In this document: piece after piece, positions 30,999-32,992 of the stretch
How the letters are laid out: each line of letters starts with the position of its first letter
Position numbering within the stretch: the first letter of the stretch is position 1
Source of the DNA: a virus
Taxonomy: Duplodnaviria; Heunggongvirae; Uroviricota; Caudoviricetes
Reading direction: 5' to 3' (one strand)
Length of the DNA: 64,000 nucleotides
IMG/VR virus record: IMGVR_UViG_3300035696_000002
Position numbers and translations under genes: made by a program
The notes under the pieces: generated by a model
Told to the model about the DNA's origin: nothing
Seen by the model: the letters and a program-made list of their open reading frames with translations, nothing else
Databases searched by the model: none

Positions 30999-31072
30999 TG
31001 GCCCCCCGGACAGGATTCAAACCCGCATCGTCGATTTTAGAGACCGCCGCTCTGCCATTGAGCTACCGGGAG
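30999..31072 (-). tRNA. Amber suppressor tRNA (CUA), G73, Trp-like anticodon arm
   Basis: CGGT-CTCTAAA-ATCG; acceptor CTCCCGG/CCGGGGG; G-CCA. Confidence 0.8.
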
Positions 31073-31074
31073 AT

Positions 31075-31153
31075 TGGTGCCGAGGCAACACAGCTTGATC
31101 GCGGAACGAGTGCACCGAAGTGCAAGCCTTGATAACTTGTGTGCTGCCTCGAC
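31075..31153 (-). ncRNA. 79-nt CCA-ended stem-bubble-hairpin RNA
   Basis: 14-bp terminal stem GTCGAGGCAGCACA/TGTGTTGCCTCGGC plus ACCA; internal TGCAC-TTCG-GTGCA. Confidence 0.6.
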
Positions 31154-31154
31154 A

Positions 31155-31229
31155 TGGAACTCGCGACGGGATTGGAACCCGCAACCCCTCGGTTTAGAAT
31201 CGAGTGCTCTGCCATTGAGCTACGCGAGC
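31155..31229 (-). tRNA. Amber suppressor tRNA (CUA), U73
   Basis: CTCG-A-TTCTAAA-C-CGAG; acceptor GCTCGCG/CGCGAGT; T-CCA. Confidence 0.8.
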
Positions 31230-31240
31230 AAAACTAAACT

Positions 31241-31317
31241 TGGTGCACCCAGTGGGATTTGAACCCACGATCCACGTTTTAGAGACATGAGCTTTGATCG
31301 GGCTAAGCTACGGGTGC
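31241..31317 (-). tRNA. Amber suppressor tRNA (CUA), A73
   Basis: CATGT-CTCTAAA-ACGTG; acceptor GCACCCG/TGGGTGC; A-CCA. Confidence 0.82.
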
Positions 31318-31344
31318 ATGTCACTACTATAGTACTCGAAAATC

Positions 31345-31395
31345 TGGTGGGCGGTGAAGACTTTCATCCCCGGTGGTTTCCCACTTTTACCGCCC
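31345..31395 (-). ncRNA. 51-nt mini tRNA-like RNA, copy 2
   Basis: GGGCGGT-AAAA-GTGG(GAAA)CCAC-C-GGGGAT(GAAA)GTCTTC-ACCGCCC-ACCA. Confidence 0.75.
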
Positions 31396-31396
31396 G

Positions 31397-31446
31397 TGTG
31401 CCCTCAAGAGCATCTTAACCAACTTAACGTGCTCTTGAGAGCATAT
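31397..31446 (-). other. Long hairpin spacer in the tRNA-like array
   Basis: TGCTCTCAAGAGCA...TGCTCTTGAGGGCA inverted repeat. Confidence 0.5.
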
Positions 31447-31448
31447 CT

Positions 31449-31524
31449 TGGCTCCGGGGGAAGGAATTGAACCTCCATCCCCGAGGCTTTCGCCCCGGTG
31501 CTCTTGCAGTTGAGCTACCCCGGA
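31449..31524 (-). ncRNA. tRNA-like RNA with anticodon loop replaced by a GAAA tetraloop
   Basis: Acceptor, D and T arms present; arm CCGGGGC-GAAA-GCCTCGG; G-CCA. Confidence 0.75.
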
Positions 31525-31527
31525 ATA

Positions 31528-31601
31528 TGGAGCCCGTTGAAGGAGTTGAACCCCCGACCTCTCCGTTAAAAACGGAGTGCTCTGCACTGAGCTAAACGGG
31601 C
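31528..31601 (-). tRNA. tRNA with UUU (Lys) anticodon and Thr-like body
   Basis: CTCCG-TTTTTAA-CGGAG; GCCCGTT/AACGGGC; T-CCA; D-loop lacks GG. Confidence 0.7.
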
Positions 31602-31612
31602 ACTTACAAACT

Positions 31613-31756
31613 TGGTGGACGCCTGAGGATTCGAACCTCCGGCTTTCACAGATTACTCACGCGGTACTCGTCGCGACGTTTCCCGTGCTTTCAATCAGCC
31701 TTACCCGGCTCTGTGAAATGCTGTCCGCTTGAAGCGGGCCATAACAGCGTGCGTCC
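31613..31756 (-). ncRNA. 144-nt tRNA-like RNA with a multi-hairpin insertion in place of the anticodon loop
   Basis: GGACGC/GCGTCC-ACCA, GAGG-TTCGAAT-CCTC T-arm, TTTCACAGA/TCTGTGAAA stem enclosing ~55 nt. Confidence 0.65.
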
Positions 31757-31793
31757 GTTATAAAAGACATTCGTCTTTTATTTCATACAAACT

Positions 31794-31843
31794 TGGTGGG
31801 CGGTGATGCCTTCCGGCACCCAGCTTTCGCTGCTTTACCGCCC
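31794..31843 (-). ncRNA. 50-nt mini tRNA-like RNA, copy 1
   Basis: GGGCGGT-AAAG-CAGC(GAAA)GCTG-GGTGCC(GGAA)GGCATC-ACCGCCC-ACCA. Confidence 0.75.
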
Positions 31844-31844
31844 G

Positions 31845-31919
31845 TGGTACGCGGGGAAGGGGTTGAACCTCCAACCTCCAGCCCGAGGGCTGGTGCTCTT
31901 TCTTTTGAGCTACCCGCGT
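31845..31919 (-). ncRNA. tRNA-like RNA with anticodon loop replaced by a CUCG tetraloop
   Basis: ACGCGGG/CCCGCGT-ACCA; CCAGCC-CTCG-GGCTGG; D-loop AAAAGAAA. Confidence 0.72.
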
Positions 31920-31981
31920 ATAATAGGCATCTTTCTGCCTGTTAAAGCCAAACCCTGTGTTAATCGGCACAATTCTGCCTG

Positions 31982-32614
31982 TTAGTACTCACCTTCTACG
32001 GCGGTACCGTCCTTCTTGCGAATACCCCAGCCGCCACGCCAGTAAACCTCAATCGTGTCGTCCCAGCCGGATTCGCGGCGTTCACTCACGCTGGGCCAGC
32101 ACTCATACTCCGCACCAGTCGAGTCCTTGTGCTTTTGCTTCGGCAGTTCCTTCAACGGATCGCCGGGCTTCATGCCCGCCCGCTTGAAGAATGCGTCCGC
32201 CGCGTAACGGATGTCACCATCGCCATCACGAATCGCTTCCGCCTTCTTTTTGGCCCAACGATAGAAAGCGTCCATCTCAACCTTCATCTCCACGTCACGG
32301 GACGCCTGTCGCGTCTTGTTGTCGCTCTCCTCGTAGTCGGGCCGCGAACCGCCAAGCTCGCTGTAATCGACCTTGAAGTCCGGGTCGCCCCAGATCATCT
32401 CCGTGATCGACATTGGGCAGATGTTCACCTTGTGTCCCTTCGACGTGTACTTGCCGCCGATGACGGTGCCCTCGGCGTCACGCTCGAAGACCTGCAAGCG
32501 GCCATCGTAATACGCTGGGGCCGAGTAAATGCACTCGATGTCGGCATTGTGTACGCACGCTTCGTCTTCAGGGTCTTGCTCCTGAAGAAGACGGATTAAC
32601 TCTTTTACCTTCAT
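31982..32614 (-). CDS. Hypothetical protein (MKVKELIRLLQEQDP...), ATGA-coupled to the Pth-like gene
   Basis: ORF track; GGAGG RBS; ATGA overlap at 32611-32614. Confidence 0.65.
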   Translation of the reverse strand: MKVKELIRLLQEQDPEDEACVHNADIECIYSAPAYYDGRLQVFERDAEGTVIGGKYTSKGHKVNICPMSITEMIWGDPDFKVDYSELGGSRPDYEESDNKTRQASRDVEMKVEMDAFYRWAKKKAEAIRDGDGDIRYAADAFFKRAGMKPGDPLKELPKQKHKDSTGAEYECWPSVSERRESGWDDTIEVYWRGGWGIRKKDGTAVEGEY

Positions 32615-32943
32615 ACAGTTTCCTCCTTCCACAAACGATAGTTAGATAGAACTTTTCGCTGCTCCTGCGAGAGCGGTACCGTGGCCACGGCGGACAGGCC
32701 CATGTTGTCGTCAGGCTCATAGAACACTTGATGGCCGATGTCATTGGTTTGGAGTTTCTGAACGACACGGAAAAGTGCGTTCTTATCGGGCACGCCGATG
32801 AGGACTAGATATGGTATTTCGTGGAAATCTTTAGGAAGGCGTCTGGCTACCTCAAAGGTAGCATGGTTGGACTGCACAATTTGCTGGGCCAGACTGATGT
32901 CTTGCCGAACAAACACGTAAAAGTAGGGTTGAACCTAGAGCAT
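32611..32943 (-). CDS. Pth2-like (peptidyl-tRNA hydrolase II fold) protein with in-frame TAG at codon 3
   Basis: YVFVRQDIS..QQIVQSNHA...FYEPD...SAVAT pattern; ATG CTC TAG GTT CAA CCC TAC TTT TAC GTG in frame, with GAGAGAGG RBS 9 nt before ATG 32943. Confidence 0.72.
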
Positions 32944-32963
32944 TGCTTTTTGCCTCTCTCAGT

Positions 32964-32992
32964 ACAATACTGCAAAGTCAACAAATTTGCAA
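32964..32992 (-). promoter_or_regulatory. Sigma70-like promoter of the Pth/tRNA-like operon
   Basis: TTGCAA-17 nt-TATTGT. Confidence 0.6.

What the first reader, a model, noticed from the sequence alone, without database searches (positions are those of the whole stretch)
30999..32992. Amber-gated Pth2-like gene (TAG at codon 3) upstream of amber-suppressor tRNAs
Seen: promoter TTGCAA-17-TATTGT, RBS GAGAGAGG, then ATG CTC TAG GTT CAA CCC TAC TTT TAC GTG TTT GTT CGG (32943 onward). The ORF caller's GTG start at 32916 has no obvious RBS and cuts into the first beta-strand (YFYVFVRQD). The next gene is ATGA-coupled, and the same strand continues into the tRNA-like array and three CUA tRNAs. Inference: the protein is made only when UAG is read through, because phage suppressors have accumulated or host RF1 is depleted or inhibited. 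That would be a stop-codon-sensing switch that supplies peptidyl-tRNA hydrolase when termination fails, possibly with positive feedback via polarity on downstream RNAs. It is conceptually analogous to prfB autoregulation.
Basis: partly seen in the sequence, partly recalled or inferred. Interest (0 to 1): 0.88.

Follow-up and report, generated by a model that had tools for sequence, protein, structure and literature searches.

The report
Suppressor-tRNA-gated phage PTH2-like gene
A 463-kb peat phage that otherwise uses the normal genetic code keeps a UAG stop as the third codon of a small peptidyl-tRNA-hydrolase-like gene and carries three UAG-reading tRNAs just downstream; dozens of distant phages share this pairing, so the protein is probably made only while those tRNAs override the stop.

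Summary
On the minus strand, a TTGCAA-17-TATTGT promoter and the SD GAGAGAGG precede ATG CTC TAG GTT, which runs in frame into a 110-codon ORF. That ORF overlaps the next gene by ATGA. Three tRNA(CUA) genes follow on the same strand.

The TAG is real and under selection. Two run assemblies carry it at about 14x. Among 75 distinct homologous loci, 59 have an in-frame TAG 7-19 codons before the conserved FVRxD strand, and the stop is usually codon 3. Codons between the TAG and the first possible downstream start vary synonymously, and no downstream start codon is conserved.

Of 41 TAG-gated loci with enough flank, 37 carry tRNA(CUA) within 5 kb. Two independent lineages have TGA instead, and each sits beside a tRNA(UCA). 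None of the five genomes examined is recoded. Two other PTH2-like genes and an ArfB-like gene in this phage are not gated.

A pLDDT 94.8 model matches solved Pth2 enzymes (TM 0.71-0.78), but the usual catalytic Lys aligns with Gln.

My best reading is a gene-specific translational gate that depends on the suppressor tRNAs. What the gate is for remains inference.

I found no publication describing this. This scan has noted the same design at least eight times on other DNA.

The parts
32964..32992 (-). Promoter-like element TTGCAA-17-TATTGT
   Evidence: Read directly. It falls below the scanner's threshold. Relatives keep an element in the same position, and in 14 SD-less relatives TTGACA-17-(-10) ends 6-9 nt before the ATG.
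32953..32960 (-). Shine-Dalgarno GAGAGAGG, 9 nt before the ATG
   Evidence: An SD-like motif is present in 42 of 61 gated loci that could be scored.
32935..32943 (-). ATG CTC TAG: start codon, one sense codon, then the in-frame amber gate (TAG at 32937-32935)
   Evidence: The stop is conserved in 61 of 75 distinct loci (59 TAG, 2 TGA). The stop is codon 3 in 45 of 63. The stretch is supported in two run assemblies.
32611..32943 (-). PTH2-fold gene, 110 codons when the TAG is read through; the ORF caller's version starts at GTG 32916
   Evidence: AF2 pLDDT 94.8. Foldseek's top 11 listed entries are all Pth2 structures. PF01981 hits 19 of 41 relatives. The family profile matches a PDB peptidyl-tRNA hydrolase at 5.9e-5.
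31982..32614 (-). ATGA-coupled downstream gene, 210 aa, unknown function, not gated
   Evidence: Conserved directly downstream in 39 loci. No Pfam, PHROG or Atlas assignment.
31241..31317 (-). tRNA(CUA) no. 1: G1-C72, A73
   Evidence: ARAGORN; Rfam tRNA 56.4 bits; a body type that recurs across loci.
31155..31229 (-). tRNA(CUA) no. 2: U73
   Evidence: ARAGORN; Rfam tRNA 61.5 bits.
30999..31072 (-). tRNA(CUA) no. 3: G73
   Evidence: ARAGORN; Rfam tRNA 52.2 bits.
35103..35448 (-). Permuted tmRNA, a conserved upstream neighbour of the module
   Evidence: ARAGORN; Rfam tmRNA_permuted 73.4 bits. A tmRNA lies 1.5-5 kb upstream in many related loci.

Best explanation
The gene encodes a divergent PTH2-fold protein whose translation starts at ATG 32943 and meets UAG at codon 3. 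Host RF1 normally ends translation there after a dipeptide. Full-length protein is made only when one of the phage's own tRNA(CUA) species decodes that UAG. Those tRNAs lie downstream on the same strand and are probably on the same transcript. The gene is therefore a gene-specific, suppressor-tRNA-dependent translational gate in a phage that otherwise uses the standard code.

Shown here: the stop is real, ancient and under selection; the codons after it are translated; the stop co-varies with the neighbouring suppressor anticodon; and the product has the Pth2 fold.

Inferred: the tRNAs are expressed, charged and able to compete with RF1. Also inferred is the purpose, which would be to match the amount of a tRNA-end hydrolase to suppressor activity. 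That would help deal with peptidyl-tRNA and ribosomes produced by stop read-through, alongside the neighbouring tmRNA.
For: 1. Conservation. 59 TAG-gated and 2 TGA-gated genes occur among 75 distinct loci, across branches longer than 1 change per site. TAG is invariant in 23 of 23 same-register loci.

2. Translation through the stop. Codons +1 to +6 keep Val, Pro, Tyr, Phe and Tyr through synonymous changes. Codon +7, which is the window's GTG, is GTG in only 4 of 23 loci, and codon +9 is GTG in 11 of 23. In some relatives the first usable start lies about 30 residues in. Ungated relatives begin MxxY[FIV]x[FVIL]FVRQD.

3. Initiation at the upstream ATG. It is preceded either by an SD, or, in 14 SD-less loci, by a TTGACA-17-(-10) promoter ending 6-9 nt before the ATG, which implies a leaderless mRNA.

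4. Linkage. 37 of 41 TAG-gated loci with at least 4.9 kb downstream, or with a hit, carry 1-3 tRNA(CUA) within 5 kb, nearly all on the same strand. None carries a tRNA(UCA).

5. Covariation. The two TGA-gated genes (L097, L212) lie in different clades. Each has a tRNA(UCA) adjacent, at +489 nt and in the 5' leader respectively, and neither has a CUA tRNA. My Fisher exact test on these counts (37/0 against 0/2) gives p = 0.0014.

6. Specificity. Genome-wide there is no excess of in-frame TAG. Code-11 coding density is 0.92. TAG ends 72 of 380 robust ORFs. The four other records examined give the same picture. The phage's canonical PTH2, a second PTH2-like gene and an ArfB-like gene are not gated.

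7. Context. The base after the stop is a purine in 60 of 63 loci and never T. From my own knowledge (Bossi 1983), a 3' purine favours amber suppression.
Against: - Nothing here is experimental. Expression, charging and amino-acid identity of the tRNAs are unknown.
- Two whole records (105 and 122 kb; CheckV completeness 89% and 100%) and two further loci keep the TAG gate but have no ARAGORN-detectable CUA tRNA.
- Several ungated family members also sit beside CUA tRNAs, and one ungated phage has a CUA tRNA 93 kb away. The tRNAs must therefore do more than open this gate.
- TAG terminates about 19% of the phage's own genes, with no enrichment of backup stops. Efficient suppression should therefore be costly, which argues for weak or brief suppression.
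- In three loci an ATG directly follows the TAG, which would allow a restart.
- The Lys of the canonical GK motif aligns with Gln, so hydrolase activity is uncertain.
Confidence: 0.7

Rival explanations
1. This is programmed leaky read-through that does not need the phage tRNAs. The early UAG is read at a low level by host near-cognate tRNAs or because RF1 terminates poorly after a dipeptide. It would simply throttle expression, as in the Q-beta A1 protein. The nearby suppressor tRNAs would serve other purposes.
For: Four gated loci, including two near-complete records, lack a detectable CUA tRNA. Suppressor tRNAs also accompany ungated relatives. The phage does not protect its own TAG terminators.
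Against: In two independent lineages the stop changed to TGA exactly where the neighbouring tRNA reads UGA. 37 of 41 informative loci carry a CUA tRNA. A mere throttle would not need to hold TAG against TGA or TAA.
Confidence: 0.1
2. ATG-X-TAG is a two-codon leader mini-ORF. The main ORF is translated by re-initiation just after the stop or at a downstream GTG/TTG, and the stop is never read through.
For: The stop is codon 3 in 45 of 63 loci. An ATG follows the TAG in three loci. The next codon is usually an NTN codon (Val, Ile, Leu or Met). The window has a GTG seven codons on.
Against: The codon after the stop is GTT, GTC or GTA in 37 of 63 loci, and these are not start codons. No downstream start is conserved. 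A restart model gives no reason for TAG to be kept over TAA or TGA, or for the stop to follow the tRNA anticodon. A start at the GTG would truncate strand beta1.
Confidence: 0.07
3. The phage uses a TAG-sense code (code 15) generally, and this is just one of many recoded genes.
For: Three CUA tRNAs are present. Some public gene callers translated short contigs of relatives with TAG=Q.
Against: Code-11 coding density is 0.92-0.94, and reading TAG as sense gains nothing. In-frame ORF pairs joined by TAG (13) are no more frequent than those joined by TAA (37). Early-stop patterns number TAG 4, TGA 5 and TAA 1, and the other TAG candidates do not hold up. TAG ends 72 of 380 robust ORFs. No RF2 or PCRF gene is present.
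Confidence: 0.02
4. The TAG is a sequencing or assembly error, or the gene is a decaying pseudogene.
For: None beyond the presence of a stop codon.
Against: Two run assemblies carry an identical stretch at about 14x. The stop recurs in more than 60 independently assembled loci, with amino-acid conservation on both sides.
Confidence: 0.01

Closest known systems
Stop-codon recoding in phages with phage-encoded suppressor tRNAs (code 15 TAG=Gln, code 4 TGA=Trp; Lak, crAss-like and other gut phages; bioRxiv 10.1101/2021.08.26.457843)
   Same: A phage-encoded suppressor tRNA makes in-frame stop codons readable in a standard-code host. The authors propose this as post-transcriptional control of when genes can be translated.
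   Different: In those phages many structural and lysis genes carry recoded stops, genomes are low-GC and depleted of that stop, and RF genes sometimes accompany the tRNA. Here a 55%-GC genome keeps the standard code, with TAG ending about 19% of its genes. One small translation-related gene carries a single stop at its extreme 5' end. That gene is physically linked to the tRNA, and no RF1 or RF2 gene is present.
prfB (RF2) autoregulation through an early in-frame UGA
   Same: An early in-frame stop in a translation-factor gene makes its own expression report how efficiently that stop is decoded.
   Different: prfB needs a +1 frameshift, and its product is the factor that reads the stop. Here the frame continues unchanged. 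The decoder is a tRNA. Whether the product feeds back on decoding is unknown.
Archaeal/eukaryotic peptidyl-tRNA hydrolase Pth2 (PF01981; PDB 2zv3, 1q7s, 1xty, 3erj, 1wn2, 1rlk)
   Same: Same fold (TM 0.71-0.78, E 2e-6 to 4e-5). Shared R-x-D ... Q-x-x-H-A and D ... G ... T motifs.
   Different: No Pfam hit for this protein at E <= 1. There is a two-residue deletion in the GKGK loop, and the Lys aligns with Gln. The family has no assayed member.
Lambda bar minigenes (two-codon ORFs toxic to Pth-limited cells; from my own knowledge, not checked here)
   Same: A start-X-stop mini-ORF linked to peptidyl-tRNA hydrolase biology.
   Different: bar minigenes are stand-alone and act through peptidyl-tRNA drop-off. 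Here the leader ranges from 2 to 13 codons, and the reading frame continues into a conserved protein.

Membership tests
PTH2 superfamily (PF01981) | Pth2 alpha/beta fold | tested here: met
   AF2 model at pLDDT 94.8. The top 11 listed Foldseek PDB entries (ranks 1-11) are all Pth2 structures, TM 0.71-0.78, probability 1.00.
PTH2 superfamily (PF01981) | Match to the Pfam model above its curated cut-off | tested here: not met
   No hit at E <= 1 for this protein. A PF01981 search of the whole genome did not pick it up, although it found another gene at 40.7 bits. 19 of 41 diverse relatives do hit PF01981 (best 1.1e-5), and the family profile hits a PDB peptidyl-tRNA hydrolase at 5.9e-5. I treat it as a divergent sister family rather than a Pfam member.
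PTH2 superfamily (PF01981) | Catalytic Lys of the GK loop and catalytic Asp (residue roles recalled from the S. solfataricus Pth2 literature, not verified here) | tested here: inconclusive
   hhalign against the phage's own canonical PTH2 puts Q20 opposite the Lys of PGKLAAQ, with a two-residue deletion. D78 is invariant or nearly so. That alignment has low probability (7.8%).
PTH2 superfamily (PF01981) | Hydrolysis of peptidyl-tRNA | not testable with these tools
   This needs an enzyme assay.
Stop-codon-recoded (alternative-code) phages | Phage-encoded suppressor tRNA matching the in-frame stop | tested here: met
   Three tRNA(CUA) genes in the window. Anticodon matches the stop in 37 TAG loci and 2 TGA loci.
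Stop-codon-recoded (alternative-code) phages | Many genes with in-frame recoded stops; poor coding density under code 11 | tested here: not met
   Coding density is 0.92 under code 11. There is no excess of TAG-joined ORFs or early TAGs. TAG is used as a terminator.
prfB-type autoregulation | Early in-frame stop in the regulated gene | tested here: met
   TAG at codon 3. The stop is codon 3 in 45 of 63 relatives.
prfB-type autoregulation | The product itself controls decoding of that stop (closed feedback loop) | not testable with these tools
   There are no functional data. This is only an inference from the Pth2 fold and the tRNA linkage.
Pyrrolysine decoding | PylS and a tRNA-Pyl of unusual shape | tested here: not met
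   No PylS match in the genome. The CUA tRNAs fit the general tRNA model at 52-61 bits. ARAGORN's 'Pyl' label only reflects the anticodon.

The most novel reading that the evidence does not exclude
The module is a closed homeostat. The PTH2-like protein would act on the suppressor tRNAs themselves, by deacylating them or by releasing the peptide from their peptidyl form. High suppressor activity would then open the gate and make the enzyme that lowers that activity. This would hold read-through at a low set-point that the phage's many TAG-terminated genes can tolerate. It would be a tRNA-based counterpart of RF2 autoregulation. Where the tRNAs lie downstream on the same transcript, translation-dependent relief of polarity could add a positive arm.
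Probability: 0.15. Interest if true: 0.9.

Novelty: new variant of a known kind. Interest (0 to 1): 0.8.

Why it matters
Suppressor tRNAs are common in large phages that show no sign of an altered genetic code, and their role there has been unclear. This locus gives them a concrete, conserved target: one translation-related gene, locked by the matching stop codon and kept beside the tRNA.

If the gate works as inferred, it is a natural, compact stop-codon switch consisting of a promoter, a two-codon leader, a stop, an ORF and a tRNA.

It may also show how stop-codon recoding begins or ends, at the stage where a single gene has become dependent on a suppressor.

Practically, gene callers truncate or miss this family, so its members are mis-annotated in public databases.

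Tried and rejected
- **Gln at the TAG position.** Three database homologues (P0056, P0075, P0078) show Gln there. This is an artefact of gene calling with TAG=Q, so it says nothing about the inserted residue.
- **First structure model.** The first AF2 model used a 41-row alignment and was poor (pLDDT 74). Its Foldseek and VIA-align searches gave only weak rows, with best Z 4.6. The deeper alignment superseded it.
- **Other early in-frame TAG candidates.** I checked G000 38826, 90563 and 460963, and window ORFs at 33642, 39700, 40388, 8251 and 12399. They have implausible leaders, or an ATG right after the stop. Homologues of the 33642 gene are not gated.
- **Backup stops.** There is no enrichment of backup stops after TAG terminators.
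- **Amino-acid identity of the three CUA tRNAs.** Similarity to the phage's other tRNAs gives no clear parent. A recurring A1-U72/G73 body type resembles bacterial tRNA-Trp only by my recollection.
- **Pattern search for CUA tRNAs.** The pattern search in whole records was too crude. I replaced it by fetching the records and running ARAGORN.
- **The 210-aa partner gene.** No Pfam, PHROG or Atlas assignment.
- **RNA evidence.** No RNA holder is listed among the public runs.
- **Bacterial genomes.** With A6 it found one contig, binned to an Acidiferrales MAG, that looks like a phage and has the same gated design.
- **Literature.** I found no description of a stop-gated Pth2-like gene. The library does not hold most subscription journals.
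- **Not tried.** Complex prediction was not used.
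Full report
**1. What is in the window**

The following lie on the minus strand.
- A promoter-like element: TTGCAA (32992-32987), 17 nt, TATTGT (32969-32964).
- The SD GAGAGAGG (32960-32953).
- ATG (32943-32941), CTC, TAG (32937-32935).
- In frame after the stop: GTT CAA CCC TAC TTT TAC GTG TTT GTT CGG CAA GAC.

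Read through the TAG, the ORF has 110 codons and ends at TGA 32613-32611. That TGA overlaps the ATG of a 210-codon gene (ATGA). The standard ORF call starts at GTG 32916 and gives 101 aa.

Downstream on the same strand lie two tRNA-like genes without a normal anticodon, a tRNA-Lys, and three tRNA(CUA) genes at 31241-31317, 31155-31229 and 30999-31072. All three CUA tRNAs score 52-61 bits on the general tRNA model. A permuted tmRNA lies 2.2 kb upstream.

The window is part of a single 463,033-bp virus record with 69 tRNA genes. Two peat-metagenome run assemblies carry the stretch unchanged at about 14x, although they may be the source samples.

**2. The genome is not recoded**

- Under code 11 a greedy ORF set covers 94% of the window and 92% of the genome. 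Reading TAG as sense adds nothing useful.
- ORF pairs joined in frame by TAG (13) are no more frequent than pairs joined by TAA (37) or TGA (11).
- The pattern SD, ATG, at most 15 codons, a stop, then a kept ORF occurs 4 times with TAG, 5 with TGA and once with TAA. The other TAG cases do not look like genes with leaders, and the one I could check in homologues is not conserved.
- TAG terminates 72 of 380 robust ORFs, with no excess of nearby backup stops.
- The genome has no PCRF-domain release factor, no PylS and no SmpB.
- It does have an ArfB-like GGQ protein, a canonical short PTH2 gene beside the Ser/Leu tRNA cluster, and a third weak PTH2-like gene. All three have ordinary starts.

The stop is therefore specific to this one gene.

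**3. The stop is conserved and translated through**

The protein has 132 close relatives in the 90%-identity collection and 2,322 representative clusters in the deeper search. In public gene calls the close relatives begin at varying internal codons (MFVRQD, MRQD, even MARRLP). Ungated distant relatives begin MxxY[FIV]x[FVIL]FVRQD.

I fetched DNA for relatives from viral, metagenome and genome collections. This gave 75 distinct genes. I reclassified four rows that the script had labelled ungated.
- 59 have an in-frame TAG 7-19 codons before the FVRxD strand, preceded by an ATG (twice a GTG) 2-13 codons upstream.
- 2 have a TAG immediately followed by an ATG.
- 2 have TGA in place of TAG.
- 12 have no stop.

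The stop is codon 3 in 45 of 63 gated genes. The base after it is G in 42, A in 18, C in 3 and never T.

In the 23 loci that share the window's register:
- TAG is invariant.
- Codons +1 to +6 keep Val, Pro, Tyr, Phe and Tyr through synonymous changes (GTT/GTC/GTA, CCN, TAC/TAT, TTT/TTC).
- Codon +7, which is the window's GTG, is GTG in only 4 loci.

No downstream start codon is conserved.

Fourteen loci without an SD have TTGACA-17-(-10) ending 6-9 nt before the ATG. That placement would make a leaderless mRNA beginning at that ATG.

A quick maximum-likelihood tree puts TAG-gated genes on both sides of the deepest splits, with path lengths above 1 change per site. An ungated pair is nested inside a gated clade with 96% support, which indicates loss of the gate. 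The careful tree search did not finish, and many forks are unresolved.

**4. Link to suppressor tRNAs**

Of the 59 TAG-gated genes, 41 have at least 4.9 kb of downstream sequence or a tRNA hit.
- 37 of these carry one to three tRNA(CUA) genes within 5 kb, nearly all on the same strand. In the more distant lineages the tRNA lies directly after the gene, 290-750 nt from the strand motif.
- None carries a tRNA(UCA).

The two TGA-gated genes sit in different clades.
- One has a tRNA(UCA) 489 nt downstream. It is the only suppressor in its complete 143-kb record.
- The other has a tRNA(UCA) between its promoter and its SD.

On these counts my Fisher exact test gives p = 0.0014.

All four other records I fetched whole use the standard code.

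There are exceptions.
- Two records (105 and 122 kb) and two further loci keep the TAG but show no CUA tRNA. In the two records an odd tRNA with anticodon loop GCAGUCU sits where relatives have the suppressor.
- Seven ungated relatives also lie near CUA tRNAs. The ungated 186-kb record has one 93 kb away.

So the family is tied to suppressor tRNAs whether gated or not, and the tRNAs are unlikely to exist only for this gate.

**5. What the protein is**

- Pfam gives nothing for this protein, and PHROGs gives only weak hits.
- PF01981 (PTH2) hits 19 of 41 diverse relatives.
- A 100-row family profile hits a PDB peptidyl-tRNA hydrolase at 5.9e-5.
- With that alignment AlphaFold2 gives pLDDT 94.8, with strand beta1 at residues 7-13.
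- The top 11 listed Foldseek PDB entries are all Pth2 enzymes (2zv3, 1q7s, 3erj, 1wn2, 1rlk, 1xty), at TM 0.71-0.78.

A start at the GTG (residue 10) would cut beta1 in half.

Against the phage's own canonical PTH2, the GK-loop Lys aligns with Gln20 after a two-residue deletion. The conserved Asp (D78) is kept. That alignment has low confidence. The assignment of catalytic roles to these residues is from my memory of the S. solfataricus work and was not verified.

The protein is therefore a divergent PTH2-fold family. Its hydrolase activity is plausible but unproven.

**6. Mechanism**

Best reading (0.7): ribosomes start at ATG 32943. RF1 ends translation at codon 3 unless a phage tRNA(CUA) decodes the UAG. 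Only then is the PTH2-like protein made, and with it the ATGA-coupled 210-aa protein, which is conserved next to the gene in 39 loci.

The placement of the tRNAs suggests one transcription unit. They lie behind the gene here and in most loci, and in front of it in L212. No convincing terminator intervenes.

The purpose is inference. One possibility is that enzyme output is matched to suppressor activity, so that products of stop read-through can be recycled together with the neighbouring tmRNA. Another is that the enzyme acts on the suppressor itself. That would give a feedback loop able to hold suppression low enough for the phage's many TAG-terminated genes.

Rivals:
- Leaky read-through that does not need the phage tRNAs (0.1).
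- A two-codon leader ORF with re-initiation (0.07).
- General recoding (0.02).
- Error or decay (0.01).

The stop/anticodon covariation, and the retention of TAG over TAA or TGA, count against the first two. The genome statistics count against the third. Conservation counts against the fourth.

**7. Novelty**

Phage stop-codon recoding with suppressor tRNAs as a translational timer is known (bioRxiv 10.1101/2021.08.26.457843). The design here differs. It is a single stop at the extreme 5' end of one translation-related gene. The gene is physically linked to its matching tRNA, in standard-code, high-GC soil and peat megaphages.

I found no paper describing it.

Within this scan the same design has been noted at least eight times on other genomes, and twice on this stretch. 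One of those notes carried a later caveat: nothing is experimental, and a strong stop-reader should be costly. My terminator counts agree with that caveat.

Noticed in passing
window 31449-31524 and 31845-31919 (-): Two full tRNA cloverleaves whose anticodon loops are replaced by tight tetraloop-like hairpins. ARAGORN reports 2-nt 'anticodons', and Rfam scores them as tRNA at 46.9 and 52.6 bits. Similar odd tRNAs (anticodons reported as ca, gc, gcaa, ta, ttta, ctag) sit beside the suppressors in related loci.
   Followed up: no
window about 31345-31400 and 31800-31860 (-): Short CCA-ended hairpin RNAs of the form GGGCGG...CACCGCCCACCA lie between the tRNA genes. They look like mini-helix acceptor-stem mimics.
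   Followed up: no
window 35103-35448 (-): A permuted tmRNA (tag ATAPKALAMAAAA) is a conserved upstream neighbour of the gated gene in many related phages, yet the genome has no SmpB gene.
   Followed up: partly
G000:C1:64063-64314 (+), outside the window: A canonical short PTH2 gene (84 aa, 40.7 bits on PF01981) with an ordinary ATG start lies between the tRNA-Ser cluster and a tRNA-Leu. A third weak PTH2-like gene is at 111533-111898.
   Followed up: partly
G000:C1:~34140-34500 (+), outside the window: A small RF-1-domain protein with a GGQ motif and no PCRF domain. It looks like the ribosome-rescue factor ArfB.
   Followed up: no
L014:3323-3398 and L017:3320-3395: In two TAG-gated phages without any CUA tRNA, a tRNA with A1-U72 and the abnormal anticodon loop GCAGUCU (C33, pyrimidine at 37; ARAGORN calls it 'Thr agt') occupies the slot where relatives have the suppressor.
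   Followed up: partly
L035:7164-7243 and L003:5320-5399: A tRNA with an 8-nt anticodon loop, reported as anticodon 'ctag', lies directly after a normal tRNA(CUA). It could be a four-base decoder or a degenerate copy.
   Followed up: no
whole genome G000: The 69 tRNA genes are grouped in clusters by amino-acid class: Ser; His/Arg/Asn/Lys; Gln/Thr/Ile; Val/Gly/Ala/Asp; Tyr/Leu/Phe; Pro/Met.
   Followed up: no
L164, L170, L172, L173: Distant ungated relatives carry an extra N-terminal domain of about 130 aa fused to the PTH2-like domain. A tRNA(CUA) lies 1-2 kb upstream, and in two of them a tmRNA follows directly after the gene.
   Followed up: no
L221 (DASUJR010000474.1, 131 kb): A contig binned into a Candidatus Acidiferrales MAG carries a tmRNA, 16 tRNAs and the same TAG-gated gene with two CUA tRNAs. 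It is probably a phage contig, and gives a weak hint that the hosts are Acidobacteriota.
   Followed up: partly
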